NCBI GenBank assembly: GCA_003485765.1
Contig: DNHS01000035.1
Location: 127,745 to 191,744, forward strand
Reading direction: 5' to 3'
Length of the DNA: 64,000 nt
From: Candidatus Omnitrophota bacterium
GTDB lineage: Bacteria > Omnitrophota > Gorgyraeia > Gorgyraeales > Gorgyraeaceae
The translations under genes and the position numbers were made by a program. This document shows positions 35,576 through 59,630 of this stretch, one piece after another (positions within the stretch are counted from its first letter, which is position 1; every line of letters begins with the position of its first letter). Below the pieces are notes generated by a model. It had not been told where the DNA came from. It searched no databases and saw only the letters and a program-made list of their open reading frames with translations.

Positions 35576-36745
35576 ATGAAAATATTAAGAATTATAGCAA
35601 GACTTAATATAGGCGGGCCGGCGAGAAATGCGGTCTTGTTAACAGAAGGATTCCCGGGAACTGCGCTTATTTGTGGGGAGGTGGATAAGTCTGAGGGCGA
35701 TATGATGTATTTGGCAGGCGAGAAAGGGATAAAGCCTATTATTATAAAAGAGTTAGGAAGAGAATTATCCTGGAAAGATGATTGGGCGGCGTTTTGGAAG
35801 ATATATAAGATTATTCGCGAGGTAAAGCCGGATATCATTCATACGCATACGGCGAAGGCAGGGACGCTAGGGAGGTTTGCAGGGATATTATATGGTAAAG
35901 CTATTTTAATCCATACCTTTCACGGCCATGTGTTTAGCGGGTATTTTGGGAAGGTTAAGACAATATTTTTTATATGGGTGGAGAAATTTTTAGCGTTGTT
36001 TACTGACACGATAATTACAGTAAGCGAGGCGTTGAAAAAAGAATTGGTAGAAAAATATAGAATAGCGCCAGAGAAAAAATTCAGCGTAATAGAATTAGGT
36101 TTTGAACTGGATGAGCTTTTGAAATTGCCGCCAAGAGAAAACAGCGGAACTGTAAATGTTGGAATTGTGGGAAGGTTAGTGCCTGTAAAAAATCATAAGA
36201 TGATGCTTAGAGTGGCTAAAAGAGTAGGCGATATACAGGGACAGTCCCCTAAAAAGGGGACAGTCCCTGTAGAAATAGTCCCTGTGCGCTATATGATTAT
36301 TGGCGATGGGGAGATGAGGGGAGAACTGGAAAGATACGTGGAAGAATTGGGCATAAAAGATAAAGTAGAGTTCAAGGGATGGGTAAAGGACTTAAAGGCT
36401 ATTTATGAAGAACTTGACATTGTGGCATTGACTTCATTGAATGAAGGAACGCCCGTATCTCTCATAGAAGCAATGGCTGGCGGGAGACCTGTGATAGCTA
36501 CAAATGTAGGCGGCGTAAAGGATATTGTGAAAGATGGCGCGAGCGGATATCTTGTAGAATTAGGAAATGTAGAAGAATTTATTAAAAAACTCCTGGAATT
36601 AATTAAAGATCCTGAGAAAAGAAGAAAATTTGGCGAAAACGGCAGGAATATCGTGAAAGATCGATTCTCAAAAGAAAGATTGATTAAAGATACCGAGAAG
36701 TTGTATAATAATACCCTGCAAGAAAATCAATTTCTTCGGTCTTAA
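35576..36745 (+). CDS. family 4 glycosyltransferase (carries an in-frame palindromic insertion)
   Basis: MKILRIIARLNIGGPARN start and EGTPVSLIEAMAGGRPVIATNVGGVKDIV motif. ATG 35576; the track start at 35477 overlaps the peptidase. Confidence 0.75.
   Translation: MKILRIIARLNIGGPARNAVLLTEGFPGTALICGEVDKSEGDMMYLAGEKGIKPIIIKELGRELSWKDDWAAFWKIYKIIREVKPDIIHTHTAKAGTLGRFAGILYGKAILIHTFHGHVFSGYFGKVKTIFFIWVEKFLALFTDTIITVSEALKKELVEKYRIAPEKKFSVIELGFELDELLKLPPRENSGTVNVGIVGRLVPVKNHKMMLRVAKRVGDIQGQSPKKGTVPVEIVPVRYMIIGDGEMRGELERYVEELGIKDKVEFKGWVKDLKAIYEELDIVALTSLNEGTPVSLIEAMAGGRPVIATNVGGVKDIVKDGASGYLVELGNVEEFIKKLLELIKDPEKRRKFGENGRNIVKDRFSKERLIKDTEKLYNNTLQENQFLRS
36236..36286. repeat. GC-rich hairpin-repeat element inserted in-frame within the GT4 gene
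   Basis: cagGGACAGTCCCctaaaaagGGGACAGTCCCtgtagaaatAGTCCCtgtg: three GGGACAGTCCC-type hairpin units. Translated as …GQSPKKGTVPVEIVPV…. Confidence 0.5.
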
Positions 36746-36867
36746 GACTGGAGTTTGTTTGAAATTGATACTGAGCCCACTATTGTTTCAGTGGCGGGCG
36801 AATGTATAAAGATAATTGAAAGAATTTAGCCTCCAGATGTGTCTAGTATGGTAGAAAGGAGGCTGAT

Positions 36868-37278
36868 ATGACTATGAACAAGAAAGAAAAAGGAGAAATA
36901 GCGGGATTAAGAGGGGAACTGCGAAGCTCTGTGGGAGAATTAAGAGGAGAATTGCAGAGTTCTGTGGGAGAATTAAGAGGGGAACTGCGAAGCTCTGTGG
37001 GAGAATTAAGAGGAGAGTTGCGAAGCTCTGTGGAAGAACTAAGAATACACATGGGTGTCTTGGTAGAGGGTTTGCGTTCAGAAGTTAGGGTGGTAGCTGA
37101 ACAATATGGAAGCGTTGTAAAAAAGCTGGAAGAACATGACAGGAGATTTGATAAAATTGATCTAAGATTTGACAGAATCGACTTAGAGTTTATCGGTATG
37201 AAGACAGGTTTGTTTGATACTAGTCATAGAGTAGATGATCACGAAACAAGAATCAGAAAATTAGAATTAGCTAAATAA
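36868..37278 (+). CDS. small coiled-coil protein with four tandem 11-aa repeats (GELRSSVGELR)
   Basis: ORF preceded by GAAAGGAGG. Repetitive heptad-like N-half and a conserved-looking C-half (…RRFDKIDLRFDRIDLEF…). Confidence 0.4.
   Translation: MTMNKKEKGEIAGLRGELRSSVGELRGELQSSVGELRGELRSSVGELRGELRSSVEELRIHMGVLVEGLRSEVRVVAEQYGSVVKKLEEHDRRFDKIDLRFDRIDLEFIGMKTGLFDTSHRVDDHETRIRKLELAK
36914..37045 (+). repeat. 4 x 33-bp near-perfect tandem repeats inside the coding sequence
   Basis: Unit ggaactgcgaagctctgtgggagaattaagagg, repeated head-to-tail. Confidence 0.7.
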
Positions 37279-37290
37279 TCAGGAGACAAG

Positions 37291-38250: not shown

Positions 38251-38252
38251 TC

Positions 38253-42555: not shown

Positions 42556-42628
42556 TATTTAGGCCTTAAACAACTTTACATTTCAACAATGTTGATTTGT
42601 AAAGTTGTTTGGAAACATAGGAGTTTAC

Positions 42629-45587: not shown

Positions 45588-46292
45588 ATGGCTAACCAAT
45601 TTTCCATATCAGTAATTGTTCCGGCTTACAATGAAGAGCAGAATATAGCAGGAGCTGTTTCAGCGATTAAAGCGGCAGCAGCCAATAGGTTCAGCGAATA
45701 CGAAATACTTATTATTGACGACGCCAGTTCGGATAATACAGGTTCCATAGCTGATAAAATTTCCAGGGAAAACCCTAATGTAAAAGTTTTTCACAATTCT
45801 AAAAACATGGGGTTTGGTTACAATTATAAGATGGGCGTAGGCTTGGCAACCAAGGACTATATAGGGCTTATCCCTGGCGACAATGAAATACTTGAAGATT
45901 CTATAAAGGATATATTCAGCTGCGCGGGCAAAGCGGATATGGTGTTGCCGTATCATACGAATTCTGAAGAAAGGTCCTTATTGAGGCGCAGTCTGTCAGG
46001 AGGTTTTACAGCGCTTTTAAATTTATTATTTGGCTATAAACTTAAGTATTACAATGGCCCTGTGGTGCATAAAAGGGAGATAGTAACTAAAGTTCGGATG
46101 ACTACAGATGGGTTTGCGTATCAGGCGGAGATTATAACCCGGCTGTTGAAAGCCGGGCATTCATATATTGAAGTTGGCATGAAAATCCGCATCCGCCAGC
46201 ATGGCCACTCAAAGGCGCTGTATCCGAAAAATGTCTGGAGCGTTTTAAAAACCATAGCAAAGCTATGCTGGGAATTAAATCTTAAAAGATGA
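45588..46292 (+). CDS. family 2 glycosyltransferase
   Basis: ISVIVPAYNEEQNI…IIDDASSDNT. Confidence 0.75.
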   Translation: MANQFSISVIVPAYNEEQNIAGAVSAIKAAAANRFSEYEILIIDDASSDNTGSIADKISRENPNVKVFHNSKNMGFGYNYKMGVGLATKDYIGLIPGDNEILEDSIKDIFSCAGKADMVLPYHTNSEERSLLRRSLSGGFTALLNLLFGYKLKYYNGPVVHKREIVTKVRMTTDGFAYQAEIITRLLKAGHSYIEVGMKIRIRQHGHSKALYPKNVWSVLKTIAKLCWELNLKR

Positions 46293-47404
46293 GAATAGGG
46301 ATAGACATACGTTCAACCCTTAAAAAACAAACCGGCATCGGCAGATATACCCTTAATCTTATAAATTCCCTCGCAAAAATAGATTCCAAAAATGAGTATT
46401 TTCTTTATAGCAGGAAAAAGCTGTTAGATTTTAAAAAACGCCTGCCTAGACTGCCTGCCGGAAATTTTCGCCACTGCGTAGATTATTTTAAAAAGGGTCC
46501 TGACAGAGTTTTACCGGAGTTAGATATATTCCATACATCTTCTTATGATCTAGAGAGGCCAAAAAAAGCAGAAAGATTTATTGTTACTATCCACGATGTG
46601 ATTATTAAAGCCTATCCCTATGGCCATAGCGAGAAGACAATAAAAGAAGTAGATGGCGAGCTGAAGAGGGTTTTAGGAGAAGCTGATTTATTAATAGCTG
46701 ATTCGAATAATACGAAGGCTGACATGGGAAAGTTCTACCAGGTTTCTGAATCCAAAATTAAAGTTATTTATCCAGGCGTAAATATTAGTGATTCTTCTCG
46801 ACTCGGCCTTCGGCCTCGCTCGAAGAATATTGCCAATATTGTTCGAGCGAGCAGCGAAGCTGCGAGTCGAGAACAATATATTCTTTTTGTAGGCACCATT
46901 GAGCCCCGCAAAAATATACAGGGTCTGATAAAGGCATTTAATCTATTAAAAAAAGAACATGGCATAGCGCATAAATTAATCATCGCAGGCATGAAAGGCT
47001 GGATGTACGAAGATATTTTTAAAGAATACGAAAATTCTGCGTTTAAAAACGATATAATATTTAAAGGCTATATCAGCGATCAGGAGCTTGCTCGATTATA
47101 TAAAAACGCCTCAGTTTTTGTGTACCCATCATTCTATGAAGGATTTGGGTTTCCCATCCTGGAAGCTTTTGGCTATGGTGTGCCAGTGGTGACATCTAAA
47201 ACATCATCCTGCGGAGAGATAGCAGGGGATAGCGCTTTGTTGGTTAATCCGGAGCGTTATCAGGAAATAGTGGAAGCAATATTAAAAATTATTAGTGATA
47301 GTTCGCTTAGGCAGGGGTTAATCATCAAAGGTTTTGAGAGAGCCGAATTGTTTACATGGCAAAATACATCAATAGAGTTTCTTAATTGTTTGACAAATAC
47401 CTAA
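46289..47404 (+). CDS. family 4 glycosyltransferase (carries an in-frame palindromic insertion)
   Basis: GT4 C-terminal EGFGFPILEAFGYGVPVVTS. Confidence 0.75.
   Translation: MRIGIDIRSTLKKQTGIGRYTLNLINSLAKIDSKNEYFLYSRKKLLDFKKRLPRLPAGNFRHCVDYFKKGPDRVLPELDIFHTSSYDLERPKKAERFIVTIHDVIIKAYPYGHSEKTIKEVDGELKRVLGEADLLIADSNNTKADMGKFYQVSESKIKVIYPGVNISDSSRLGLRPRSKNIANIVRASSEAASREQYILFVGTIEPRKNIQGLIKAFNLLKKEHGIAHKLIIAGMKGWMYEDIFKEYENSAFKNDIIFKGYISDQELARLYKNASVFVYPSFYEGFGFPILEAFGYGVPVVTSKTSSCGEIAGDSALLVNPERYQEIVEAILKIISDSSLRQGLIIKGFERAELFTWQNTSIEFLNCLTNT
46796..46873. repeat. about 78-bp nested palindromic (cloverleaf-like) GC-rich element inside the GT4 coding sequence
   Basis: Outer stem TCTCGACTCG/CGAGTCGAGA enclosing hairpins GGCCttcGGCC, CGCTCGAAGAATATTG/CAATATTGTTCGAGCG and GCAGCgaaGCTGC. 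Reading frame maintained. Confidence 0.55.
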
Positions 47405-48026: not shown

Positions 48027-48045
48027 TAGCTTGGCGAGCTCCGTA

Positions 48046-48624: not shown

Positions 48625-48635
48625 AGCAAAAATAT

Positions 48636-48664
48636 TATACCATATTGTTACTATTTATGGTATA
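48636..48664. promoter_or_regulatory. 9-bp inverted repeat in the divergent promoter region
   Basis: TATACCATA-N11-TATGGTATA between the minus-strand gene start and the GT9 start. Confidence 0.3.
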
Positions 48665-48676
48665 TTATAAACTTAA

Positions 48677-49903
48677 ATGAGAAAGAATATTCTGGTTATA
48701 AATCCATTCGGCATAGGGGATGTTCTGTTTTCAACAGTGCTGGTAAGGCAATTAAGAAAGAATAACCCTAATAGCTATATAGCTTATATATGTAATCTAA
48801 AAGTAAAAGATATTCTGGCCACAAATCCTGATATCAATGAAGTTTTTGTATTTGAGCGCGATGAATATAGATCAGAATGGAAGAAATCAAAGATTAGAGG
48901 CATAAAAAAGTTCTTAGGGTTCTGGAGAGAGGTAAAAAAGAAAAAATTTGATGTAGTATTTGATCTTTCGCTTGGCAAGGAATACGCGTTTTTATGCTGG
49001 TGGGTTGGCATAAAAGAGCGCAAAGGATTTAATTATAAAAAACGGGGAAGATTTTTAACGCATAAAATAGAGTTTGACGGGTTTAACGATAAGCCTGTGG
49101 CAGAATATTATTTAGATTTATTTTATCTTAATAAGATTGCTTCGCTCACTCCGTTCGCTCGCAATGACGAACTTATATGTCATTGCGAGGAGCCTCAAAG
49201 AGGCGACGAAGCAATCTCAACAGTTTTAGTTACGACAGAACATGATAAAGAATATATAGACAATTTTTTAAACCAATCAGGCATTAAAGATAACGATATT
49301 CTAATCGGCATCGCCCCTGGCGGTGGCATGAGCTTTGGCCTTAAGAATCAGGATAGACGCAGATGGCCTGTTAAAAAATTTGCTGAATTAGCAGATAAAG
49401 TTATTGAAAAATTTAATGCCAGAATAATTTTAATATGGGGCCCTGGAGAGGAAAAATTAGTTCAGGAAATAGCGATTCTAATGAAACAAAAGCCATTGAT
49501 CACCCCGGCTACTAAGATAAGAGAAATGGCAGAGCTGTGTAAGAGATGTAAGCTGGTTATTTGCAGCGAAGGCGGCCCTCTTCATATTGCCAATAGCCAT
49601 GACGTAAAGACAATATCTATATTTGGTCCGGTAGATGAAAAAGTTTACGGTCCGTATCCACTTGGGGAAAATAATATTGTAGTGACTTCAGATGTTGATT
49701 GCAGGCCGTGTTATAAGAAATTTAAACTCCCTGAATGCAGTAATAGAAAATGCTTAGAGGATATTTCAGTGGATGGAGTATTTAAAGAGATTGCTTCGGC
49801 TGCCACCTTTGGAAGCTTCCCTCGCAATGACGGTGGAACAGGCAGTGTCATTGCGAGGAGTTCCGATATCAAAGATGTCGGGACGACGAAGCAATCTAAA
49901 TAA
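48677..49903 (+). CDS. family 9 glycosyltransferase (LPS heptosyltransferase-like) with two in-frame palindromic insertions
   Basis: [31 protein letters not shown] is the RfaC/RfaF-type N-terminus. Central …GIAPGGG… and C-terminal …[11 protein letters not shown]… segments. Confidence 0.7.
49135..49217. repeat. nested palindromic element copy 1 inside the GT9 gene
   Basis: Outer stem AGATTGCTTCG/CGAAGCAATCT enclosing CTCGCAATGAC…GTCATTGCGAG and GCCTCaaaGAGGC. Encodes …[26 protein letters not shown]…. Confidence 0.6.
49788..49897. repeat. nested palindromic element copy 2 at the 3' end of the GT9 gene
   Basis: Same outer stem and same CTCGCAATGAC/GTCATTGCGAG inner stem as 49135-49217. Encodes the tail …[28 protein letters not shown]. 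Confidence 0.6.
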
Positions 49904-49914
49904 CAGGAGAAGCC

Positions 49915-51018
49915 ATGAAAGTAGATATTTTTACTCTTAAAAAACAATACGAGAGCATAAAAGATGAGATCAAAGGACCTATAGAGAAGGTTATACAATC
50001 AGGCGGATTTATACTTGGCGAAGATGTTGGCCTCTTTGAAAATGAATTTGCTGAATACTGCGGAGTCAAATATGGGATTGGCGTGAATTCAGGAACAGAC
50101 GCCTTATTTTTAGCCTGCCTTGCCTGCGGCATTGGAAAAGGCGACGAAGTGATAACCCCGACTTATACTTACATAGCTACTAGTTTCGGGATTTCTATGG
50201 CAGGCGCAAAACCGGTTTTTGTGGATACAGAAGAAAAAACTTATAGTATTGATATTTCAAAGATAGAAAAGGTCATTACTAAAAAAACAAAAGCTATATT
50301 ACTTGTGCATCTATATGGCCACCCGGCTAATATGGATCCCATAATCGAGATTGCCAAGAAATATAAGCTCAAAGTTATAGAAGACTGTGCTCAAGCTCAC
50401 GGAGCGCTTTACAAAAACAAGAAAGTCGGCGGTTTTGGAGATGCAGCATGTTTTTCATTTTATCCTACTAAGAATCTTGGAGCTTTTGGTGACGGCGGCA
50501 TGATAATAACAAATTCAGAAGAGGTAAAGGATAAAGCGTTGCTTCTGAGAGATTACGGAAGAAAAGGGAGATACGAAAACATAATCAAAGGTTATAATTC
50601 TAGGCTCGATACATTACAGGCGGCTATTTTACGCGTAAAGCTTAAACATTTGGACGAGTGGAATGAAAAAAGAAGAAAAAATGCGAGCCTTTATACAAAA
50701 CTATTCAAAGAAAAAAAGGTGGATATAGTACTTCCTTATGAGGCAGATTATGCAAAACATATTTATCATCAATATACTATCAGAGTTAAAAATAGAAAAG
50801 AAGTTATGGAAAAACTGGCTGATAAAGGTGTGCGCACGTTAATTCATTATCCAATACCTGTACATTTGCAAGAATGCTATAAAGAACTTGGTTATAAAAG
50901 AGGCGCTTTTCCTGTTGCAGAAAAATGCTGTGAAGAAATAATGAGCTTACCTATGTATCCGGAACTCACAGAAGAAGAAATCAGATACGTAGTGGAGCAA
51001 TTGTCTGAAATAATATGA
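49915..51018 (+). CDS. DegT/DnrJ/EryC1/StrS-family PLP-dependent sugar aminotransferase
   Basis: Typical length and N-terminus (…[30 protein letters not shown]…). Lys-containing [15 protein letters not shown] segment. Confidence 0.85.
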
Positions 51019-51902
51019 AACTTTTAATTATCGGAGCTTCAGGGGTTCTTGGAAGCAGGTTATATAACGATGCAATAAAAAATAAATGGAACGTTCTGGG
51101 AACATATTGTTCTCATGAATGCGAGGGGCTTTTTTATCTGGACGTAAGGGATAAAGCGAGCCTTGAAAAAGTATTTAATTTTTTTCGTCCTGAAACAGTA
51201 GTAATGGCCGGCGGAATTACAGATGTAGACTTATGCACGTTAAAACCCAAGCTTGCTATGGATGTGAATATAAAAGGTACGATGAATCTAGTAAAAAAGA
51301 CAAAAGAGTATGACGCAAGATTAGTATATGTTTCAACTGATTATGTATTTGACGGAGAAAACGGGCCGTATAAAGAAAATGACAAACCAAACCCTATAAA
51401 CATGTACGGCAGGACAAAACTGGAAGCGGAAAATATAATAAAAAGTAAATTGAAAGATTGCTTAATAGTGCGCACTGCGCAACTTTATGGAGTAGCGGAG
51501 CGAAGCTCCGCGCAAAACAGTAATTTTACGCTGAAAATAATTCACAATATGAAGAGCGGCAAAAATGTATACGCAGCAGATGATTTATATTCTACGCCTA
51601 CTTACGCAGGATCTCTTTCTGAAATAATAATAAAACTTATAGAGAAAAAGGCCAAAGGCGTTTATCATGGCGCAGGGGCTGAATTTTTAAACCGATACGA
51701 TTATGTCAATAAAATAGCCGATATTTTCGGGCTTGATAAGAGATTGATACAAAAGGTCAAACTGAAAGATTTAAAGCTGAAGGCAAAGCGTCCTAAAAAA
51801 GGCGGCTTAAAAATTGATAAAGTGGTTAAAGGAAAGATTGCTAAACCCTATGATTGCAAAACAGGCCTTGCTTTTTTGAAAAAAGACATGTCTTATGCTT
51901 GA
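51015..51902 (+). CDS. RmlD-like sugar-nucleotide reductase/epimerase
   Basis: [16 protein letters not shown]; about 295 aa. Confidence 0.6.
51495..51511. repeat. perfect 7-bp-stem GAA-loop hairpin inside coding sequence
   Basis: GCGGAGCgaaGCTCCGC (contains the GCGAAGC mini-hairpin core). Confidence 0.4.
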
Positions 51903-52827: not shown

Positions 52828-52831
52828 TTTT

Positions 52832-53233: not shown

Positions 53234-53238
53234 ATTTT

Positions 53239-54099
53239 ATGAATATAGCTATTATTTTTGACATATTGAGAGCTGATACAATAGGCATATATTATGAAAA
53301 GGCTTTCAGGGAGCTAGGGCATGGCGTAGACCATTTTCAGACAGATGAAATGCATAAGATAAATAAAAAATATGATATGTACTTGTGCATAGATGACGGC
53401 CTCAATAGAGACGCTATCCCAAAGAGTTTATTTCCCAAGGTTTTTTATGCCATAGACGTGCATTTGCCGGCGCCTGAACGGAAAATACGGAAGAAAGTTT
53501 TAAACAAAAGTTATGACCTGGTATTTACGCCTGCCCAGTGGTGGATTAATCAGATGAAGGGTATCTCACCTGTTGAAATTATATGGATGAACCAGGGGTG
53601 TGATCTGGATATACATAAGAGATTAAATGTGGAAAGGAATTATGACATAGGTTTCGTAGGGACCGACGGCGGAGTGCCTAGGAAATTTTATCTTCAGGAA
53701 ATAAGGGAAAGGTATCCCAATAATTTTATCGGAACGGCTGATTACAAGGATATGTCCAGGATTTACAGCGCATCCAAGGTAGGTTTTAGCTTACCTATAC
53801 GTTTAGAATACCTGACTCTCAGAAATTATGAAATCATGGCGTGCGGCGCAATGCTTTTGATGAAAAGATTAAGAGACGACAGCGCTGAGAGGCTCGGATT
53901 TATAGATAAAAAGCACCTTGTTATATTTGATGGCCCAAAAGATTTATTTGAACTTTTAGATTATTATCTGAAGAACAAAGATGAGAGAGAAAGAATAGCA
54001 GAAAACGGATATCGTCTCGCTATTGAAAAACATACTTATCTTCATAGGGCAAGAGAGATAGTGGATATTGTGAAAGACAGGTTTCATCTGTGTGATTAA
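53239..54099 (+). CDS. CgeB/DUF3880-like glycosyltransferase-domain protein
   Basis: C-terminus …YEIMACGAMLLMKR…ENGYRLAIEKHTY… resembles the GT1-type C-lobe of CgeB-family proteins. Confidence 0.4.
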   Translation: MNIAIIFDILRADTIGIYYEKAFRELGHGVDHFQTDEMHKINKKYDMYLCIDDGLNRDAIPKSLFPKVFYAIDVHLPAPERKIRKKVLNKSYDLVFTPAQWWINQMKGISPVEIIWMNQGCDLDIHKRLNVERNYDIGFVGTDGGVPRKFYLQEIRERYPNNFIGTADYKDMSRIYSASKVGFSLPIRLEYLTLRNYEIMACGAMLLMKRLRDDSAERLGFIDKKHLVIFDGPKDLFELLDYYLKNKDERERIAENGYRLAIEKHTYLHRAREIVDIVKDRFHLCD

Positions 54100-54151
54100 G
54101 GATATGAAAGTTAATGACACTATTGTAATCTAAATTATAGGAGAAATTGGT

Positions 54152-55009
54152 ATGTCCCTTATTAGCAGGTTCAAGAGCAGGTATAAGGATTTACAAAAAA
54201 TAACCAAAGTTTTCATACAACAACCACAGCTAAGCTTTAAGCGGTTGACCAAATTACCTGCAAATTTACGCGGCTTTAACTATTCTCAAGAATGGCAACC
54301 CTCTGCTGTCACTAACAAGCAGCCATCTTTTTCTGGTCTACCAGCGGTATCTCAGTCTTCAAACCCCTTAAAATCTTATATTAATTCCCATAAAGAAGGA
54401 AAAGGTATTTTGAAGTGGGACCACTATTTTGATATTTATCATCAGCACTTTAAAAAATTTGTGGGACACGAGGTGCATATACTTGAAATTGGAATTTTCA
54501 GCGGCGGAAGTCTCGAAATGTGGAGGGATTATTTCGGTTCTAAGTGCCACATCTATGGTGTGGATATACAAGAAGAATGTAAAATGTATGAAAACGAATA
54601 CACAAACATTTTTATAGGCGATCAGGCAGATCGTAAATTTTGGAAATTATTTAAAGATAAAGTTCCTGTAGTCGATATTCTGATTGATGACGGCGGCCAT
54701 CAAGCTGAGCAACAAATAGTCACGCTCGAAGAGATGCTTCCTCATCTTTCTCCTGGAGGGATCTATTTTTGTGAAGACATTCATGGGTCTTACAATGATT
54801 TTGCTTCTTATTTACACGGACTAATTAATAGTCTAAATGATATGATTCAGTTGTCAGAATCTGGAATTAGCCCCACACAATTCCAAAGCTGGATTAAATC
54901 GATGCATTTTTATCCGTATGTTACGGTAATTGAAAAAGCCGAGAGGCCTGAAGAAAAAATTGTCGCTACAGGACATGGAACTGAATGGCAGCCGTTTTTA
55001 AAATTTTAA
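54152..55009 (+). CDS. CmcI/TylF-like class I SAM-dependent (sugar O-)methyltransferase
   Basis: …HILEIGIFSGGSLEMWRDYFG…VVDILIDDGGHQAEQ…. Confidence 0.5.
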   Translation: MSLISRFKSRYKDLQKITKVFIQQPQLSFKRLTKLPANLRGFNYSQEWQPSAVTNKQPSFSGLPAVSQSSNPLKSYINSHKEGKGILKWDHYFDIYHQHFKKFVGHEVHILEIGIFSGGSLEMWRDYFGSKCHIYGVDIQEECKMYENEYTNIFIGDQADRKFWKLFKDKVPVVDILIDDGGHQAEQQIVTLEEMLPHLSPGGIYFCEDIHGSYNDFASYLHGLINSLNDMIQLSESGISPTQFQSWIKSMHFYPYVTVIEKAERPEEKIVATGHGTEWQPFLKF

Positions 55010-55013
55010 ATGT

Positions 55014-55679
55014 ATGAATAAAAAGAAAGATAAACGCGATGATTTTTTAGATCTTGTACCTCGAGGCACAAGAAGATTGTTGGATGTAGGATGCGGTTCT
55101 GGCGGGCTTTCCATGAGATTAAAGGAAAAAGGCATAGAGGCGGTAGGTGTAGAAAAAAATGAAAATCTATGTTCTCTGGCTAAAGAAAAATTAGATACGG
55201 TGATTTCAGGGGATGTGGAAAATTTAAAGTTAGATTATCCGGAAGGGTATTTTGATTGTATTATGTATGCAGATATCCTTGAGCATTTAACAGAGCCTTT
55301 AAATATTTTGGAGAAACATAAAATTTATTTACAGAAAGACGGCTGCGTAATAGCGAGTATTCCTAATGTAAGATATTATAAAATCATCCTGCGTTTAATC
55401 CTATCCGGCGCGTGGGATTATAACGATGCTGGAATGCTTGACAGGACTCATGTCAGATTTTTTGGATTAATAAATATTATAGAACTTTTTGAAAAAGCCG
55501 GTTACGAGATAGTGGAGATCAGGAGGAATGTTATCGCAGCCAGAGGGTTCAGGGTTCTAAATTTTATATTTTTTAATAATTTGAAAGATTTTCTTACATA
55601 TCAATACTATATCAAGGCAAAAAAGAGCGACAACTTGTTGAAAACTTGTACTGATGCCAGAAAGATCTATAAGTTTTGA
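55014..55679 (+). CDS. class I SAM-dependent methyltransferase
   Basis: LLDVGCGSGGLS. Confidence 0.7.
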   Translation: MNKKKDKRDDFLDLVPRGTRRLLDVGCGSGGLSMRLKEKGIEAVGVEKNENLCSLAKEKLDTVISGDVENLKLDYPEGYFDCIMYADILEHLTEPLNILEKHKIYLQKDGCVIASIPNVRYYKIILRLILSGAWDYNDAGMLDRTHVRFFGLINIIELFEKAGYEIVEIRRNVIAARGFRVLNFIFFNNLKDFLTYQYYIKAKKSDNLLKTCTDARKIYKF

Positions 55680-55711
55680 TTTCCGGGTTATTATAAAGAT
55701 CAGAGGTTTAT

Positions 55712-56449
55712 ATGGATGCATTTGAAAATTTAAGGCCAGGAGGGTCAGGTATTTTACCCGAAGAAACGCATCCGAAATTTTTCGCAAGACATTTCAGCGC
55801 GTATCATTTCGCGCTTCCTCATGTGAAGGATAAGGATGTTCTTGAGATAGGCTTCGGAGATGGGTATGGTGCGAATTTTCTGGCGGATAGCGCGAGAAGC
55901 GTAAAGGCTGTTGACGTTCTGGAAAAGAACGTGGCGCTTGCGGCAAATAAATATAAAAGAAATAAGCTGGAGTTTAAAAAAACAGATATCACGTATTCAG
56001 AATTTGCTGATAATACGTTTGACGCGGTTGTGAGTTTTCAGGTAATAGAGCACATACCTGAAAACGAAATCGCCGGATATCTGGAATCCATAAAAAGGGT
56101 TTTGAAAAAAGGCGGAAGGGCTTTTATCTCTACGCTTAACCTGGACAAAAACAAAAAACCCAACAGGCCGTATCCTAAAAACCCTTTTCATATCAAGGAG
56201 TTTACATATAAAGAATTTGACCTGTGTATCAAAGAGGTTTTTAATAACTATGAAATAAAGGGCCTTTTTTATACGACAAAGCTTAGATTTTATGAAAGAT
56301 TGAAGAAAATAGGCATTTTTAAATTTTTTCCTCCAGGGCTAAATATAGTGGATAATTATTACAAGAGAATTACGGTAAATGACTTTACATGGAAAAAGGA
56401 AGACTTACAGGCTTGCATAGATTTCATGGCAGTCTGCATAAAAAAATAA
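55712..56449 (+). CDS. class I SAM-dependent methyltransferase
   Basis: VLEIGFGDGYGANFLA. Confidence 0.7.
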   Translation: MDAFENLRPGGSGILPEETHPKFFARHFSAYHFALPHVKDKDVLEIGFGDGYGANFLADSARSVKAVDVLEKNVALAANKYKRNKLEFKKTDITYSEFADNTFDAVVSFQVIEHIPENEIAGYLESIKRVLKKGGRAFISTLNLDKNKKPNRPYPKNPFHIKEFTYKEFDLCIKEVFNNYEIKGLFYTTKLRFYERLKKIGIFKFFPPGLNIVDNYYKRITVNDFTWKKEDLQACIDFMAVCIKK

Positions 56450-56459
56450 GGATCAGGCT

Positions 56460-58100
56460 TTGAAAAAATATCTCACATTAGATTTTGTCTTAATCGCGGC
56501 TTTGGTGGTATTTGTCACCCTTCAGCCGTACTTTATGCATGGGATGATAAATTTTTATGAAACAGGAATATATCTACCTCAGATAAATGAGTTTCTTCAT
56601 GGCAAGGCGTTATATAGAGATGTTTTTGTTTTAAGAGGGCCTCTTGAAATAGTTATGCCGGCCTTACTGATGAAGCTTTTTGGGGTACATGTAGGGGCAT
56701 TGAATGCGTATTTTTATTTTGGTACAGTAGTAACTCTTTTTATATATGCGTTATTTGCGCTGAGGCTATATAAAACAAGAGGTTTTGTTTATCTTTTTGC
56801 CATGGTTTTGATAGCCAGGACTTTTCCGTGGTCTTGTTTTAACGTATGGGGTGGAATAAGGTTCGGGCTGGGTATATTCGGCGTATTGCTGGCTGTAAAT
56901 TTTCTGAGAAATAAAAAATCTGTGCAGCTTTTATTTTCCGGAATATTAACCAGCTTTGCATTTTGGACAAGTTTTGAACTTGGCGCGTTCAGTTTTATTT
57001 CTATTATAACGGCGCTTCTTTTATGTGGATATGCAGAGATAAAAGACATGCGGGTTGTTTTCAGGTATGTTTTAATTTATATCGCAGGAAATATTATCGC
57101 ATCGCTTCCGTTTATTCTTTATTTATTTTTGAATAACGCTTTTTTCTTTTATTTAGATGCAGTATACGTGGTTTTGACAAAAACGTCAAAGGTGTTTAAT
57201 CCTGCGTTTTGTTTTGAAACGCCGATGAACCTAAAAGAGTTTATCATGGCGCTCTATCCGTTGAGCCATAATTTTAAATACACCCTGCCGTTTTTATTTT
57301 ATGTTGCAGTATGCGCTTATCTATTGCGGAGATTTGCAAAAAGAAAATTTGATATTTCAGATATTTCAATATCTGCGGTGTCAATCTACGGGATTTTATT
57401 ATATATCAGCACTTTCAGAAACGTAGAAGGCCCTCAATACAGGATGACGCTCCAGCCGCTCTTATTAGTCATGTTTTTTTATTTGGAGCGGTTTTATATA
57501 TGGAATAAAGGTTTAAAACAAAGTATTCGCGGATTAAAAAAGGTTTTGGTTATTTTTATTTTATTTGCTATTCCGGTATACGTGCTGGGATTTTCTGTAA
57601 GTAAATACAGCAAGCGGTTTTTCATTTTTAAGGAAATAAAAGAGGCTATTTTGCACAACAAGCGCGCTGATATACCGTATGCAAATCCTGACCCAACCCC
57701 TATTAAATCGAATCGCGCTATGGGGATAATCGTGCCAGGTTCTCAGGCCAGAGAAGTAGATGGCGTAGTAGAATATATAGCTACTCATACTGAAAATAGC
57801 GATGCTGTTTTTACTTTTCCAGATCTAGGGTCTTATAATTTTCTGACAGACAGGCCTTCAGCAGGAAAGTTCTATTGCGCTGAATTATCCTTCATGGATT
57901 CGCAATGGTTTGAGGATATGTTTAGGGAGCTTAAAAATACAAAGCCAAAATTTATTATATGCGCTAAAGAATTTACAAGGCTAAAGCCTTTCATGCCTGA
58001 TATTGGTAAATATCTGGATAGGATGACCGAATTCTTACGGGAAGACTATAACATAAGGAAGTCATTTGAAACAGTTAATATATTTGAAAGGAAGATATAA
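56460..58100 (+). CDS. polytopic membrane protein with C-terminal soluble domain (possible GT-C-type glycosyltransferase)
   Basis: About 11 TM helices in the first 370 aa, then a hydrophilic about 170-aa domain. Confidence 0.35.
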   Translation: MKKYLTLDFVLIAALVVFVTLQPYFMHGMINFYETGIYLPQINEFLHGKALYRDVFVLRGPLEIVMPALLMKLFGVHVGALNAYFYFGTVVTLFIYALFALRLYKTRGFVYLFAMVLIARTFPWSCFNVWGGIRFGLGIFGVLLAVNFLRNKKSVQLLFSGILTSFAFWTSFELGAFSFISIITALLLCGYAEIKDMRVVFRYVLIYIAGNIIASLPFILYLFLNNAFFFYLDAVYVVLTKTSKVFNPAFCFETPMNLKEFIMALYPLSHNFKYTLPFLFYVAVCAYLLRRFAKRKFDISDISISAVSIYGILLYISTFRNVEGPQYRMTLQPLLLVMFFYLERFYIWNKGLKQSIRGLKKVLVIFILFAIPVYVLGFSVSKYSKRFFIFKEIKEAILHNKRADIPYANPDPTPIKSNRAMGIIVPGSQAREVDGVVEYIATHTENSDAVFTFPDLGSYNFLTDRPSAGKFYCAELSFMDSQWFEDMFRELKNTKPKFIICAKEFTRLKPFMPDIGKYLDRMTEFLREDYNIRKSFETVNIFERKI

Positions 58101-58102
58101 AG

Positions 58103-58810
58103 GTGCTTAAAAAAGAAATTTCAAAGGATTACGACAGGATTTTTTCAACGCATGGGCTGAGAACAGAAACATCGTATTACAGGTGGATTATTTCCATACT
58201 GGGAGATATGAATAGCAAAGCGCTTCTGGACATTAGCTGTGGAGAAGGGATTTTGCTGGCTGAGGCGGCAAAACAAGGCGCAAGGACATTCGGAGTAGAC
58301 ATATCCCAGGAGGCGCTTAAAAGGACGAGAGCGAGCAGCCCTGATTCATGCCTCGCGTTGAGTGACGGCGAAAAAGTCTGTCTCGGGCCTCGCGCTAAAT
58401 TTGATTATATAACTTGCCTTGGGAGCCTGGAACATTATAATTATCCTGAGGAAGGGTGCAGGGAGATCGTCAGGCTTTTAAAGCCTGACGGCAAGGCAGT
58501 CGTTGTCCTTCCGAATGAATTCTCAATGCATGTTCTTTTGGATGTTTTATTCAAAGGCAGGTCAGGGGATGACGGTTTTCAGATAATCGAGAAACTGGCG
58601 AGTTTTGGCCAGTGGAAGAAATTCCTGGAGGCAAATGGCCTGAAGATGTTAAAGGCATACAAGGTTAATGAAAGGCCTGTTTTTTGGAGAGATAGGAAAA
58701 TCCGATCCTTCAGCAAATTTTTAAGAAATCTATGGTTTTATTATTTAACCCCGTTTTATTTCGCAAGGACATTTGCATTTTTATGCGAAAAGAAGGATAA
58801 ATATGTTTAA
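58103..58810 (+). CDS. class I SAM-dependent methyltransferase
   Basis: LLDISCGEGILLAEAA. Confidence 0.7.
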   Translation: MLKKEISKDYDRIFSTHGLRTETSYYRWIISILGDMNSKALLDISCGEGILLAEAAKQGARTFGVDISQEALKRTRASSPDSCLALSDGEKVCLGPRAKFDYITCLGSLEHYNYPEEGCREIVRLLKPDGKAVVVLPNEFSMHVLLDVLFKGRSGDDGFQIIEKLASFGQWKKFLEANGLKMLKAYKVNERPVFWRDRKIRSFSKFLRNLWFYYLTPFYFARTFAFLCEKKDKYV

Positions 58811-59582
58811 AAAGATTTCAGTGGTTACAATCGCAAAAAACGAAGAAGCTAATATTGCCGCGTGTATCAATAGCGCGAAAGGCTGGGCAGATGAGCATAT
58901 AGTAGTGGATGATTTTAGCTCCGATAAGACTGTGGAGATTGCTAAGGCTAATGGCGCTATAGTTTTTCAGAGAAAGATGGACATAGAAGGCGTTCATAGG
59001 AACTGGGCGTATTCCAGGGCGAATAATGAATGGGTATTGAGCCTGGATGCGGATGAAGAAGTGACGCCTGAATTAAAAGAAGAGATAATGAGGGCGATTC
59101 AGTCAGATGATTATGTGGTTTATAATGTTCCTCTTAGGACTTACATAGGGGATTACTGGGTTAAATATGGCGGATGGTATCCTGGCCGCAAGGATAGATT
59201 ATTTAAAAAATCAGAATTTAAATATGAAGAAACTGGCGTGCATCCAAGAGTTTTTTATAAAGGCAAATGCGGCAGGTTAAATAGCGATATTATTCATAAA
59301 GGTTATGAGGATTTTGCAGAGCTTTTTAGAGGGCTTAATGGCCAGACTACTTTAGAGGCCCAGAAGTGGTTTAATGATGGCCGTAAAGTAGGCGTAGGTC
59401 TGATACTCTGGAAAGCAACTGACAGATTTTTTAGGACTTATATTGGGAAAAAAGGCCATAGAGACGGCTTAGTAGGTTTTGTAGTAGCTATGAACAGCGC
59501 GCTTTATCAAATCTTCAGCTATGTAAAATACCGGGAACTCAAGCAAAATCTGCCCTTCGGGCAGATTTTGCGCAGACCCTGA
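58773..59582 (+). CDS. family 2 glycosyltransferase
   Basis: ISVVTIAKNEEANI…VVDDFSSDKT…LDADEE. Confidence 0.7.
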   Translation: MHFYAKRRINMFKKISVVTIAKNEEANIAACINSAKGWADEHIVVDDFSSDKTVEIAKANGAIVFQRKMDIEGVHRNWAYSRANNEWVLSLDADEEVTPELKEEIMRAIQSDDYVVYNVPLRTYIGDYWVKYGGWYPGRKDRLFKKSEFKYEETGVHPRVFYKGKCGRLNSDIIHKGYEDFAELFRGLNGQTTLEAQKWFNDGRKVGVGLILWKATDRFFRTYIGKKGHRDGLVGFVVAMNSALYQIFSYVKYRELKQNLPFGQILRRP

Positions 59583-59630
59583 GCAAGGCCGAAGGCCGCG
59601 TCGAAGGGTCAAGTCGAAGGGTCAAATTGA
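59546..59630. repeat. GC-rich hairpin cluster spanning the GT2 stop codon (terminator-like / MITE-like)
   Basis: AAATCTGCCCttcGGGCAGATTT (10-bp stem) then GGCCgaaGGCC, GACCC…GGGTC and a 13-bp tandem GTCGAAGGGTCAA x2. Confidence 0.5.

What the first reader, a model, noticed from the sequence alone, without database searches (positions are those of the whole stretch)
36236..59630. GC-rich nested palindromic (MITE/RPE-like) elements lie in-frame inside glycosyltransferase and SDR coding sequences
In a 32% GC genome, several 17-110-bp elements with near-perfect nested inverted repeats and GAA/GCGAAGC-type loops lie within ORFs without breaking the frame. They sit in the GT4 genes (36236-36286, 46796-46873), twice in the GT9 gene (49135-49217, 49788-49897), in the RmlD-like gene (51495-51511) and across the stop of the GT2 gene (59546-59630). 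The two GT9 copies share outer stem AGATTGCTTCG/CGAAGCAATCT and inner stem CTCGCAATGAC/GTCATTGCGAG, so they belong to one family. They add 9-30 aa insertions or tails such as …[18 protein letters not shown]. This resembles the Rickettsia palindromic elements that colonise proteins. It raises questions about a mobilisation mechanism and about tolerance by the host proteins. The elements may also act as transcript-stabilising or attenuating hairpins inside a very long same-strand operon.
Basis: seen in the sequence. Interest (0 to 1): 0.7.

Follow-up and report, generated by a model that had tools for sequence, protein, structure and literature searches.

The report
Palindromic repeats translated inside sugar-transferase genes
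Six GC-rich hairpin-forming repeats of the REP/RPE kind sit inside, or at the 3' end of, glycan-synthesis genes of an uncultured Omnitrophota bacterium and are read through as floppy peptide loops and tails, a real phenomenon that was already described in Rickettsia and other bacteria.

Summary
The six elements include the four most stable 90-nt folds in the 64 kb; five rank in the top six. They lie in two GT4 genes, a GT9 gene (two copies), an RmlD-like gene, and across the stop codon of a GT2 gene. Omnitrophota orthologues in conserved gene order either lack them or carry a different palindrome at the same site, so they are secondary insertions. AlphaFold confidence drops below 50 essentially only over the inserted segments (interdomain linker or C-terminal tail).

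Both GT9 copies are tail-to-tail dimers of one unit, YGTC-ATTGC-GA-[variable hairpin]-GAA-GCAAT-CTC. That unit fits the CGTC-tagged REP superfamily, which includes Rickettsia RPE-4/RPE-6. Its exact 22 conserved bases occur in at least 18 bacterial phyla and in phage contigs. The RmlD-like insert is a GTAG-tagged REP. The GT4 inserts belong to two further families.

They are not MITEs, terminators or Rfam RNAs. No transposase gene was found nearby, so how they move is unknown. Intragenic REP/RPE insertions, shared hot spots between orthologues and solvent-exposed positions are all published. These are new members of a known kind.

The parts
36234..36286 (+). Element A. A hairpin with arms 36234-36250 and 36255-36271 (17 bp, one A.A mismatch, AAAA loop), built from two copies of GGGACAGTCCC, plus a third partial copy at 36277-36286. 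It encodes QGQSPKKGTVPVEIVPV in a loop of the C-terminal domain of the GT4 gene 35573-36745.
   Evidence: The orthologue in L244 has a short loop and L245 has a different insert. The peptide GQS[PQ]..GTVP occurs at the same site in four orthologues (P0241, P0242, P0245, P0288), and P0248 and P0254 carry the GLSP..GTVP variant. Only 1 of 3 forward frames is open.
46795..46874 (+). Element B. A four-way palindrome with outer stem TTCTCGACTC/GAGTCGAGAA enclosing three hairpins: GGCC-TTC-GGCC, CTCGCTCGAAGAATATTG/CAATATTGTTCGAGCGAG, and CAGC-GAA-GCTG. It encodes SSRLGLRPRSKNIANIVRASSEAASRE in the interdomain linker of the GT4 gene 46289-47404.
   Evidence: (MFE -47.8, rank 1). Copies of the same family lie in the L245 GT9 linker, GT9 tail, GT4_B linker and GT4_A N-terminus, and in L248. 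In the AF2 model the only segment with pLDDT below 50 is 169-179. The Logan contig L001 starts inside it at 46845.
46805..46816 (+). A 12-nt mini-hairpin (GGCC-TTC-GGCC plus one base, peptide GLRP) nested in B. It is absent from the otherwise identical B copy in L248. The exact indel boundary is ambiguous within a short repeated TCG.
   Evidence: Nucleotide comparison of the window with L248. Protein P0125 lacks GLRP.
49134..49217 (.). Element C. A tail-to-tail dimer of the CGTC-type REP unit: left unit 49134-49168 (minus orientation, CGTC tag), spacer 49169-49178, right unit 49179-49217 (plus orientation, TGTC tag, GCCTC-AAA-GAGGC apical hairpin). It encodes [29 protein letters not shown] in the interdomain linker of the GT9 gene 48677-49903.
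   Evidence: The linker is 33 aa here against 8 aa in L244. AF2 pLDDT is below 50 over 152-178.
49788..49897 (.). Element D. A second tail-to-tail dimer of the same unit: left unit 49788-49831 (minus), spacer, right unit 49847-49897 (plus, 11-bp apical hairpin with two G.T pairs on the sense strand). It encodes the C-terminal tail [38 protein letters not shown] of GT9; the stop codon TAA follows at 49901-49903.
   Evidence: (MFE -62.9). Tails of orthologues are 13-20 aa shorter or carry other palindromes. AF2 pLDDT is below 50 over 380-408. The NCBI copy P0001 has a 29-nt deletion at its left edge.
51489..51515 (+). Element E. A single GTAG-tagged REP, GGAGTAG-CGGAGC-GAA-GCTCCG-CGCAA. It encodes GVAERSSAQ in a loop of the RmlD-like gene 51015-51902.
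   Evidence: Near-identical copies lie in the L243 GT9 linker, GT9 tail and GT4_B linker (two copies). The peptide AERS[SF]A occurs in 13 orthologues of two gene families. Orthologues in L244 and L242 lack it.
59543..59623 (+). Element F. Hairpin 1 at 59543-59571 (GCAAAATCTGCCC-TTC-GGGCAGATTTTGC) is fully coding. Hairpin 2 at 59576-59610 (GACCCT..GGCC-GAA-GGCC..AGGGTC) contains the GT2 stop codon 59580-59582. A 13-nt direct repeat follows at 59611-59623. The right half resembles family B (SKAEGRVE against SEAEGRVEK).
   Evidence: The GT2 orthologues called in L244 and L245 are 255 and 252 aa, against 269 aa for the longest ORF here (a TTG start; gene callers give 259 aa). In L244 and L245 the next gene overlaps GT2. 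Logan contigs end at 59590 and begin at 59603, inside F.
48677..49903 (+). Host gene: GT9 heptosyltransferase-like glycosyltransferase, 408 aa, against 347-368 aa in most orthologues.
   Evidence: Pfam PF01075, 2574 homologues, alignment A1, model.
46289..47404 (+). Host gene: GT4 glycosyltransferase carrying B.
   Evidence: Pfam, homologues, linker survey, model.
35573..36745 (+). Host gene: GT4 glycosyltransferase carrying A.
   Evidence: Pfam, homologues, loop survey.
51015..51902 (+). Host gene: RmlD-like SDR carrying E.
   Evidence: Pfam PF04321, orthologue alignment.
58773..59582 (+). Host gene: GT2 glycosyltransferase whose last ~13 codons and stop codon lie in F.
   Evidence: Pfam PF00535.

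Best explanation
The six elements are REP-type dispersed palindromic repeats from at least four families.

- C and D are tail-to-tail dimers of a CGTC/TGTC-tagged REP unit.
- E is a GTAG-tagged REP.
- B, with part of F, and A belong to two further families found in Omnitrophota relatives.

They were inserted secondarily into a tightly packed, single-strand glycan-biosynthesis gene cluster of an Omnitrophota bacterium. In such a cluster the only places where an 80-110-nt insert survives are interdomain linkers, surface loops and gene 3' ends. Only copies whose length and frame keep the reading frame open survive. These are simply translated into disordered peptide loops or tails that the enzymes tolerate.

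Shown: secondary insertion, family membership, repeated occupation of the same sites, and location in low-confidence linker or tail segments.

Inferred: the elements spread as single-stranded DNA hairpins through a trans-acting enzyme encoded elsewhere (a RAYT-like HUH transposase for the GTAG type; unknown for the CGTC type). Hot spots reflect tolerance plus a possible preference for inserting into existing hairpins. Any effect on mRNA stability or translation is secondary.
For: Real and non-random: five of the six strongest folds in 64 kb, z -4.6 to -6.6. Stem words are confined to C and D. Independent assemblies are base-identical over C, D, E and parts of B and F.

Secondary insertion: the syntenic locus L244 has none of the six elements and no 90-nt window at or below -35 kcal/mol in 21 kb. 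L242, L243, L245, L248 and L249 carry different palindromes at the same codon positions. Linker or loop lengths range 8-53 aa in 83 parsed GT9 orthologues, 11-51 aa in 97 GT4_B and 10-47 aa in 62 GT4_A. An 88%-identical orthologue (P0122) has entirely different linker content.

Families: E copies at four other sites in L243; B copies at four sites in L245 and one in L248; A-type peptides in six orthologues.

Structure of the C/D unit: 161 distinct centres of at least 9 nt fold far better than shuffled centres (mean -10.7 against -6.7 kcal/mol, Wilcoxon p = 2e-25). The ATTGC/GCAAT stem is in the MFE fold in 151 of 161.

CGTC-REP identity: the base before GTC is T in 64% and C in 29% of instances. 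Novosphingobium resinovorum pSA1 holds at least 40 matching places; the four units read in a 40-kb stretch form two head-to-head dimers with a CGTC tag and a CCAG tail. This matches the definition in PMC3733652.

Tolerated positions: in the AF2 models the multi-residue segments below pLDDT 50 are GT9 152-178 and 380-408, plus a 3-residue loop at 321-323, and GT4_B 169-179.

Frame filtering: C and D have centre lengths of 13 and 22 nt. In the IAS frame these avoid the TGA that the canonical 5- and 11-nt centres would give.

Ongoing change: a 12-nt nested mini-hairpin separates the window from L248.
Against: - No transposase or other recurrent gene lies near the elements in the window or near the unit in 240 loci. 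The mobilisation step is therefore pure inference. PMC3733652 itself states that CGTC REPs lack a dedicated transposase.
- No further copy was found in the other 40 kb of the window or in 9.2 kb downstream in the same genome. Multi-copy status within this genome rests on the copies inside the cluster and on contig breaks at B and F.
- Translation of the inserts is assumed, not shown.
- Part of the sharing between orthologues (for example GVAERSSAP in eight GT9 proteins) may be common descent rather than repeated insertion.
- The unit's tail is CTC, not CCA. The stem is 5 bp plus an internal loop, not 8-9 bp. The dimers are tail-to-tail, the rare type for CGTC REPs.
Confidence: 0.8

Rival explanations
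1. The hairpins have been recruited as RNA elements within the long same-strand operon. They could act as barriers to 3'-exonucleases, as processing sites that set segment-specific mRNA stability (as shown for E. coli REPs), or as ribosome pause sites at domain boundaries that help the two Rossmann domains fold in turn. This could hold alongside the insertion origin.
For: D and F sit at gene 3' ends just upstream of the next ribosome-binding site. The apical hairpin of D has two G.T pairs that pair only on the sense strand. Internal copies lie exactly at interdomain linkers. PMC3733652 argues that many REPs act as RNA.
Against: Each orthologue has a different element or none at each site, so no specific RNA is conserved. 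The unit shows no orientation bias relative to flanking genes, 54 sense to 46 antisense. G.T and A.C pairs in its variable stem are equally rare, 5 against 9 of 655. The terminator scan calls none of the elements. There is no Rfam match.
Confidence: 0.25
2. The segments are not insertions of mobile repeats. They are hypervariable linker sequence that becomes palindromic locally, for example through template-switch (quasi-palindrome) mutation or slippage.
For: The linkers are hypervariable in every orthologue. Even the shortest version, in L244, folds weakly (-18.7 kcal/mol). Some linkers show short direct peptide repeats. A 12-nt hairpin indel exists.
Against: The same sequences recur in unrelated genes and genomes: E in GT9, GT4 and RmlD; B in GT9, GT4_A and GT4_B; the C/D unit in at least 18 phyla and in phage contigs. 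Local mutation cannot produce that.
Confidence: 0.05
3. They are MITEs: non-autonomous derivatives of an insertion sequence, moved by cut-and-paste through terminal inverted repeats and leaving target-site duplications.
For: Size of 50-110 nt, inverted-repeat ends, dispersed copies.
Against: No target-site duplication is apparent at the C, D or B boundaries. The conserved ends belong to a hairpin unit that also occurs singly, in both dimer orientations and in tandem arrays. No cognate insertion sequence or transposase lies near 240 loci. Mini-hairpins of 12-27 nt behave as units.
Confidence: 0.05
4. The elements are removed before the mature protein is made, by intron-like splicing, translational bypassing as for yeast mitochondrial byp elements, or intein-like excision. 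The enzymes would then never carry the extra peptides.
For: Strong hairpins (-42 to -63 kcal/mol) inside coding sequence resemble byp elements.
Against: All internal copies keep the frame and lack stops in the frame used. There are no intron or ribozyme matches and no intein motifs. RPE-encoded peptides in Rickettsia are reported to be expressed (PMC3733652).
Confidence: 0.03
5. Assembly or binning artefact: chimeric joins at repeats.
For: Short-read contigs break inside B, F and a third palindrome. The NCBI record is labelled Gottesmanbacteria although all relatives are Omnitrophota.
Against: Three independent assemblies are identical across the elements they cover. Orthologous loci from unrelated samples show the same phenomenon.
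Confidence: 0.02

Closest known systems
CGTC-tagged REPs (Di Nocera, De Gregorio & Rocco 2013, BMC Genomics 14:522, PMC3733652). The paper places Rickettsia conorii RPE-4 and RPE-6 and Neisseria dRS3 in this superfamily.
   Same: The C/D unit has a terminal YGTC tag (CGTC or TGTC) and a stem whose first two pairs are A-T. It has a short unpaired C-rich tail and occurs as singles, dimers and groups. It is found both between and within genes, across phyla. In Novosphingobium the same 27 bases carry a CGTC tag and a CCAG tail as head-to-head dimers. No dedicated transposase is known for this superfamily or was found here.
   Different: The tail here is CTC or CTA, not CCA. The conserved stem is 5 bp followed by a GA/GAA internal loop and a variable apical hairpin, rather than 8-9 bp with a 4-5-nt loop. 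The window copies are tail-to-tail dimers, which the paper calls rare. I could not see the paper's figure of consensus sequences, so assignment to CGTC-1 to CGTC-4 is open. The spread found here (at least 18 phyla, Patescibacteria, phage contigs) is wider than the 5 phyla reported.
Rickettsia palindromic elements (RPEs) inside genes, as described in Matsutani et al. 2013, PLoS One 8:e71861 (PMC3767692), and the earlier work of Ogata and colleagues cited there and in PMC3733652.
   Same: Palindromic repeats are inserted in frame in functional genes. [quoted passage not shown] Orthologues carry different RPE groups at nearly the same position, for which hot spots or divergence were proposed. The encoded segments are solvent-exposed.
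   Different: The host is a free-living candidate phylum from groundwater, not an obligate intracellular alphaproteobacterium. At least four families share the same linker. The host genes are glycan-biosynthesis enzymes in a single operon-like cluster.
GTAG-tagged REPs and REPINs, proposed to be mobilised by RAYT (REP-associated tyrosine transposases of the HUH/IS200 type). The RAYT link is as summarised in PMC3733652; the term REPIN is from my own knowledge of Bertels & Rainey 2011.
   Same: E is a 6-7-bp GC-rich stem with a 3-nt loop, preceded directly by GTAG. It occurs as singles and as same-orientation (head-to-tail) pairs. C and D are REP doublets that fold into one long hairpin, as REPINs do. 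Intragenic GTAG REPs are most numerous in Opitutus terrae, which by my own knowledge is a Verrucomicrobia member of the same PVC group as Omnitrophota.
   Different: No RAYT gene was seen. E has conserved flanks (GGAGTAG ... CGCAA) beyond the tag.
Very small dispersed repeats of cyanobacteria (Elhai et al. 2008) and GC clusters or byp elements of yeast mitochondria. Both are from my own knowledge and were not checked here.
   Same: Very short hairpin units that nest within each other and occur inside genes. GC-rich hairpins in an AT-richer genome.
   Different: No sequence relationship was tested. Byp elements are bypassed during translation, for which there is no sign here.

Membership tests
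CGTC-tagged REP superfamily (PMC3733652) | Unpaired terminal CGTC motif, often TGTC or CCTC, at one end of the stem-loop | tested here: met
   In 300 unique unit instances the base before GTC is T in 192 and C in 88. In the window the left units of C and D have CGTC and the right units TGTC. Novosphingobium copies have CGTC.
CGTC-tagged REP superfamily (PMC3733652) | Stem of 8-9 bp whose first and second pairs are A-T, with a loop of 4-5 nt | tested here: inconclusive
   The stem starts ATTGC/GCAAT, so the A-T-first rule is met. Only 5 bp are conserved; they are followed by a GA/GAA internal loop and a variable hairpin of 2-9 bp, often with a GNA triloop. How the paper draws stem and loop for this sequence could not be checked because figures are not held.
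CGTC-tagged REP superfamily (PMC3733652) | Short unpaired tail, mostly CCA | tested here: inconclusive
   The search pattern fixed the first two tail bases as CT, so CCA tails were excluded from the 300 instances. Within them the third tail base is C in 72%. Window copies have CTC and CTA. Novosphingobium copies, found with a pattern that left the tail free, have CCAG.
CGTC-tagged REP superfamily (PMC3733652) | Mostly head-to-head dimers (tags outside) | tested here: not met
   This applies to the two window copies, which have the tags inside (tail-to-tail). Elsewhere both arrangements and singles occur, and Novosphingobium shows head-to-head dimers.
Rickettsia RPE-4/RPE-6/RPE-7 | Sequence match to the RPE consensus, with the shared ATGAC motif | tested here: inconclusive
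   ATGAC/GTCAT is present in every unit. One exact unit occurs in a Tisiphia (Rickettsiaceae) genome, L192. No R. conorii RPE sequence was available for alignment. The link rests on the equation of RPE-4 and RPE-6 with CGTC-4 and CGTC-1 in PMC3733652.
Rickettsia RPEs (as a phenomenon) | In-frame insertion in conserved genes, at surface-exposed positions, absent from some orthologues | tested here: met
GTAG-tagged REP (element E) | Short stem-loop (stem 6-13 bp, short loop) with GTAG at one end | tested here: met
   GGA-GTAG-CGGAGC-GAA-GCTCCG. The same layout is seen in five other copies.
GTAG-tagged REP (element E) | A cognate RAYT gene flanked by the repeats (REPtron) in the genome | not testable with these tools
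   Only about 73 kb of this genome was available, and no Y1/HUH transposase lies in it. A whole-genome search is needed.
MITE | Terminal inverted repeats derived from an insertion sequence, and target-site duplications | tested here: not met
   No duplication is apparent at the boundaries of B, C or D. The ends belong to a unit that also occurs singly and in arrays. No related insertion sequence or transposase lies near 240 loci.
Intrinsic terminator | GC-rich hairpin followed by a T run | tested here: not met
   None of the six elements is called by the scan of 46000-60500, which found 8 sites against 9.6 expected. Element A lies outside the scanned range.
Any Rfam family | Covariance-model match at the gathering score | tested here: not met
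   No match in the window or in 16 loci rich in units. At E <= 1 the only hit is a chance miRNA match at 21.7 bits against a gathering score of 80.

The most novel reading that the evidence does not exclude
The C/D unit may be more than one REP family among many. Its 22 conserved bases (YGTCATTGCGAG ... CGAAGCAATCTC) are found with exactly the same sequence in at least 18 bacterial phyla, in Patescibacteria and in phage contigs, while the apical hairpin varies freely but always pairs. That pattern suggests a specific recognition site (5-bp stem plus GA/GAA purine loop) for a conserved, still unidentified trans-acting enzyme that copies or moves these hairpins. The CGTC superfamily has no known transposase. 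On this reading, the repeated filling of the same linkers in Omnitrophota orthologues would reflect targeted insertion into existing hairpins rather than tolerance alone. Small GIY-YIG nuclease genes next to units in three loci are the only lead.
Probability: 0.2. Interest if true: 0.65.

Novelty: new member of a known kind. Interest (0 to 1): 0.35.

Why it matters
The practical value is for annotation and protein modelling of uncultured bacteria. Many odd peptides in MAG proteins ([41 protein letters not shown] and similar) are translated REP-type repeats, not protein motifs. They mark linkers and tails that can be trimmed.

The window also gives a compact natural experiment. One glycan-synthesis cluster has orthologues that are empty or filled with different families at identical positions. 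That could be used to date insertions and to test tolerance against targeting. With complete genomes it could also help find the missing mobilising enzyme of CGTC-type REPs, which is still an open question.

It does not reveal a new kind of element.

Tried and rejected
- Rfam: no match at gathering score for the window or for 16 loci rich in units, and only a chance miRNA hit at E <= 1 around the elements.
- Literature search for the stem sequences and the encoded peptides returned only chance primer matches. A search for GCGAAGC plus 'repeat' was uninformative. The unit sequence is not in the supplements of PMC3733652.
- Neighbour-gene enrichment around 312 units in 240 loci found only a set of related phage structural genes and generic paralogues, with no transposase or recombinase. 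A GIY-YIG motif scan found 2 hits in 1.87 Mb, too few to claim an association.
- Orientation of units relative to flanking genes shows no bias between genes (54:46) and 2:1 inside crude ORFs, which one reverse frame carrying a stop may explain.
- G.T against A.C counts, meant to identify the functional strand, were both negligible.
- I considered and dropped integron attC sites, dif/Xer sites, CRISPR repeats, sigma-54 promoters, operators of the CIRCE type and k-turns. Sequence or spacing does not fit. This is reasoning only, apart from Rfam.
- E and the inner stem of B are absent or nearly absent from IMG/VR (0 and 1 stretches). The A motif occurs there mostly as direct repeats that look like protein-binding sites and may be unrelated.
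- The upstream flank of the source contig could not be fetched. The 9.2 kb downstream has no element.
- The 14836-14925 and 58468-58490 hairpins are ordinary methyltransferase motifs, not elements.
- The metagenome-contig scan and the profile search of protein representatives were not used.

Full report
**1. The observation**

The sequences at the six stated positions are as described.

I folded every 90-nt window of the 64 kb in steps of 15 nt. The mean MFE is -14.7 kcal/mol with an sd of 5.0. B, A, D and F rank 1 to 4 and C ranks 6, at z = -4.6 to -6.6. Rank 5 (14836-14925) encodes a normal SAM-methyltransferase glycine motif. E is a perfect 7-bp GC-rich hairpin with a GAA loop. It is one of six such hairpins in the window, against 2.7 +/- 1.4 in Markov shuffles; the shuffles themselves reached six, so that count is not significant on its own.

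GTCATTGCGAG and CGAAGCAATCT each occur four times, only in C and D. The first is well above chance (0.5 expected, none of 100 shuffles reached four). The second is not decisive alone (1.4 expected, 6 of 100 shuffles reached four).

Pfam confirms the host genes:
- GT4, 35573-36745
- GT4, 46289-47404
- GT9, 48677-49903
- RmlD-like, 51015-51902
- GT2, 58773-59582

A to E are read through in frame. The GT2 stop codon (59580-59582) lies inside the second hairpin of F.

Three details need correcting.
- The elements lie in a 36-41% GC region, not 32%.
- Being free of stops is partly a property of the sequences themselves. B is open in all six frames; C, D and E in two of three forward frames; A in one.
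- A has no copy elsewhere in the window.

The elements are not assembly artefacts. A Logan assembly of run SRR6482978 is base-identical over 46845-59590 and 59603-63211, and an ENA scaffold over 52061-64000. These cover the 3' end of B, all of C, D and E, and F; A is supported only by the identical protein P0241. The short-read contigs break inside B, inside F and inside a third palindrome at 63180-63224, as expected for repeated sequence.

**2. Source organism**

The best homologues of all three glycosyltransferases are from Candidatus Omnitrophota. Identical proteins sit in an NCBI record named Candidatus Gottesmanbacteria bacterium GW2011_GWC2_39_8. I take that label to be a binning error.

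**3. The elements are insertions**

I fetched orthologous loci with the same gene order.

L244 comes from an 833-kb contig. It has none of the elements and no 90-nt window at or below -35 kcal/mol in 21 kb. Its GT9 linker is eight residues (AGKRNSYK), against 33 in the window, and its GT9 tail is 31 residues shorter.

The other loci carry different palindromes at the same codon positions:
- The GT9 linker holds C in the window, an E-type hairpin in L243, a B-type element in L245, and half of C plus another palindrome in L242.
- The GT9 tail holds D, an E-type hairpin, a B-type element, or a 17-bp perfect palindrome.
- The GT4_B linker holds B, two E-type copies, a B variant, or a CCACCGCGTAGGTGG dimer.
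- The RmlD loop holds E, nothing, or another insert.

Among the listed homologues the site lengths range widely:

| Site | Length range | Orthologues parsed |
|---|---|---|
| GT9 linker | 8-53 aa | 83 |
| GT4_B linker | 11-51 aa | 97 |
| GT4_A loop | 10-47 aa | 62 |

A handful of peptide types recur across the three gene families. An orthologue 88% identical to the window's GT4_B has completely different linker content, so turnover is fast relative to protein divergence.

**4. Position in the proteins**

AlphaFold2 models were built with the orthologue alignments.
- GT9: mean pLDDT 76.8. The multi-residue segments below 50 are 152-178 (C, between the two Rossmann-like domains) and 380-408 (D, after the last helix), plus a 3-residue loop at 321-323.
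- GT4_B: mean pLDDT 87.2. The only segment below 50 is 169-179, inside B, again in the interdomain linker.

**5. Families**

*C and D.* Each consists of two inverted copies of one unit. Written 5' to 3', the unit is YGTC-ATTGC-GA-G[variable]C-GAA-GCAAT-CTC.

The genome hits include Chloroflexota, Patescibacteria, Omnitrophota, Desulfobacterota, Bacteroidota isolates, Bacillota (the complete Sporomusa malonica genome), Planctomycetota, Atribacterota and a Rickettsiaceae symbiont, among others. That is at least 18 phyla.

The unit occurs singly, as dimers in both orientations, and in tandem arrays. Across 300 unique instances the base before GTC is T or C in 93%. The 161 distinct centres of at least 9 nt fold much better than shuffled ones (p = 2e-25), usually with GNA triloops. 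The ATTGC/GCAAT stem closes the fold in 151 of 161.

In Novosphingobium resinovorum plasmid pSA1 the same 27 bases occur in at least 40 places. The four units read in a 40-kb stretch form two head-to-head dimers with a CGTC tag and a CCAG tail.

These features match the CGTC-tagged REP superfamily of Di Nocera et al. 2013. That paper equates CGTC-1 and CGTC-4 with Rickettsia RPE-6 and RPE-4. Matsutani et al. [quoted passage not shown]

*E.* Its form is GGAGTAG-CGGAGC-GNA-GCTCCG-CGCAA, a GTAG-tagged REP. There are five further copies in L243 and in related proteins.

*B.* This is a compound four-way palindrome. Copies lie in L245 and L248, and F shares its right half. The window copy has a nested 12-nt mini-hairpin that the L248 copy lacks.

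*A.* It belongs to a hairpin family seen at the same GT4_A site in six orthologues.

E and the inner stem of B are absent or nearly absent from IMG/VR. That suggests narrower, possibly lineage-restricted families, in contrast to the C/D unit. Their distribution across bacterial genomes was not scanned.

**6. What they are not**

- No Rfam family matches.
- None is called as a terminator.
- There are no apparent target-site duplications and no IS-derived terminal repeats.
- No transposase lies in the window, where the 26-35 kb region holds toxin-antitoxin modules instead, or near 240 unit-bearing loci.
- The unit shows no orientation bias relative to neighbouring genes.

**7. Mechanism**

Shown:
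- The elements are secondary.
- They belong to dispersed families.
- They repeatedly occupy the same permissive sites.
- The internal copies preserve the reading frame. For C and D this involves unusual centre lengths (13 and 22 nt) that avoid the TGA which the canonical 5- and 11-nt centres would place in that frame.

Inferred:
- They are translated as disordered segments.
- They spread as single-stranded DNA hairpins through an enzyme encoded elsewhere. This would be RAYT-like for the GTAG type; none is known for the CGTC type (PMC3733652).
- Hot spots arise from tolerance, perhaps with a preference for inserting into existing hairpins.

A secondary role for the hairpins in mRNA stability or translational pausing cannot be excluded, but nothing here supports it.

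**8. Novelty**

These points are all published:
- intragenic REPs and RPEs;
- dimers that encode 20-30 residues;
- different repeats at the same position in orthologues;
- solvent-exposed locations;
- cross-phylum CGTC repeats.

What is added here:
- a new host phylum;
- four families sharing the same linkers of one glycan-biosynthesis cluster;
- a much wider distribution of one CGTC-type unit, including phage contigs and Patescibacteria.

This makes the finding a new member of a known kind, of moderate-to-low interest. One open lead remains: the unidentified factor that recognises the invariant base of the CGTC-type unit.

Noticed in passing
window 36906-37070, in ORF 36868-37278: Four to five tandem copies of a 33-nt unit encode an 11-residue repeat (GELRGELRSSV) in a small protein. 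Its only Pfam similarity is a weak match to apolipoprotein-type helical repeats. Orthologous loci have a small gene of 98-106 aa at the same place.
   Followed up: no
window 26312-26350, 31923-31966, 34097-34140, 36807-36845; also 26378-26448/31236-31306 and 32558-32620/34021-34083: Blocks of 40-70 nt between genes are repeated at 72-100% identity (AAAAATTTTTGAAAGAAAACGC..GAGATGTGTCT and others). They lie between small cassettes in the 26-37 kb region and look like shared promoter or leader sequences.
   Followed up: no
window 26545-29262, 32719-34806, 47455-48026: The glycan-biosynthesis cluster is interrupted by several toxin-antitoxin or defence-type modules: nucleotidyltransferase plus HEPN, ParE, AbiEii plus an HTH protein, and two MazF/PemK pairs. 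Syntenic loci carry different sets (Fic, AbiEii, ParD/PemK).
   Followed up: partly
window 42568-42610 and 63180-63224: Two AT-rich 43-nt near-perfect palindromes, 81% identical to each other (AAACAACTT.ACA..TCAACA/TGTTGA..TGT.AAGTTGTTT), lie just upstream of ORFs 42605.. and 63218... The Logan contig L262 ends inside the second one. This is a separate repeat family, possibly an operator.
   Followed up: no
window 49769-49797 (left edge of D), compared with protein P0001: The NCBI copy of the GT9 protein is 100% identical but ends ...[16 protein letters not shown]. That corresponds to a 29-nt deletion at the left edge of D, which shifts the frame onto the TGA inside the unit. It is either a real population variant or an assembly difference. 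If real, the D-encoded tail is dispensable.
   Followed up: partly
window 1-24000 against 26000-64000: GC content steps from 31.5-36% (mostly 32-34%) to 36-41% at about 26 kb, while GC skew stays positive throughout and nearly all genes are on the + strand. All six elements lie in the GC-richer part.
   Followed up: no
window 28489-28509 and 28553-28574, in ORF 28475-28957 (no Pfam match): Two perfect 9-bp GC-rich hairpins lie 45 nt apart near the start of an ORF of unknown function, upstream of a ParE toxin gene. They were not compared with the element families.
   Followed up: no
L022, L191 and other loci: A sister unit, GTCATTCTGAG...CGAAGAATCTC, differs from the C/D unit by a double compensatory change in the basal stem (ATTGC/GCAAT to ATTCT/AGAAT).
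   Followed up: no
L184 311-428; L191 3875-4391; L145: Small GIY-YIG nuclease genes lie close to CGTC-type units in three loci, 25 nt from a unit in L184. That is too few to claim an association, but it is the only nuclease-type neighbour seen.
   Followed up: partly
L004, L007, L019, L036, L089, L095 and about 13 further IMG/VR loci: A group of related phage contigs (shared portal-like, capsid-like and tail-like ORFs) carries the CGTC-type unit repeatedly between structural genes. The unit is often directly upstream of an AAGGAGG ribosome-binding site on the opposite strand.
   Followed up: partly
L125 1372-1870, L201, L180: In Chloroflexus and Caldatribacterium the unit forms head-to-tail tandem arrays, with a period of about 50 nt in Chloroflexus. 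This resembles the clustered REP blocks reported for Thermomicrobium roseum.
   Followed up: no
L252 (IMG/VR): GGGACAGTCCC-N4-GGGACAGTCCC occurs five times in AT-rich intergenic DNA of one phage contig. It looks like a repeated protein-binding site and may be unrelated to element A despite the shared 11-mer.
   Followed up: no
window 24965-25045 and 29323-29403: The 5' ends of two genes are 75% identical over 81 nt. The second is the 626-aa ORF 29324-31204, whose syntenic counterpart in L244 is an asparagine-synthase-type gene. This suggests paralogous amidotransferases within the cluster.
   Followed up: no
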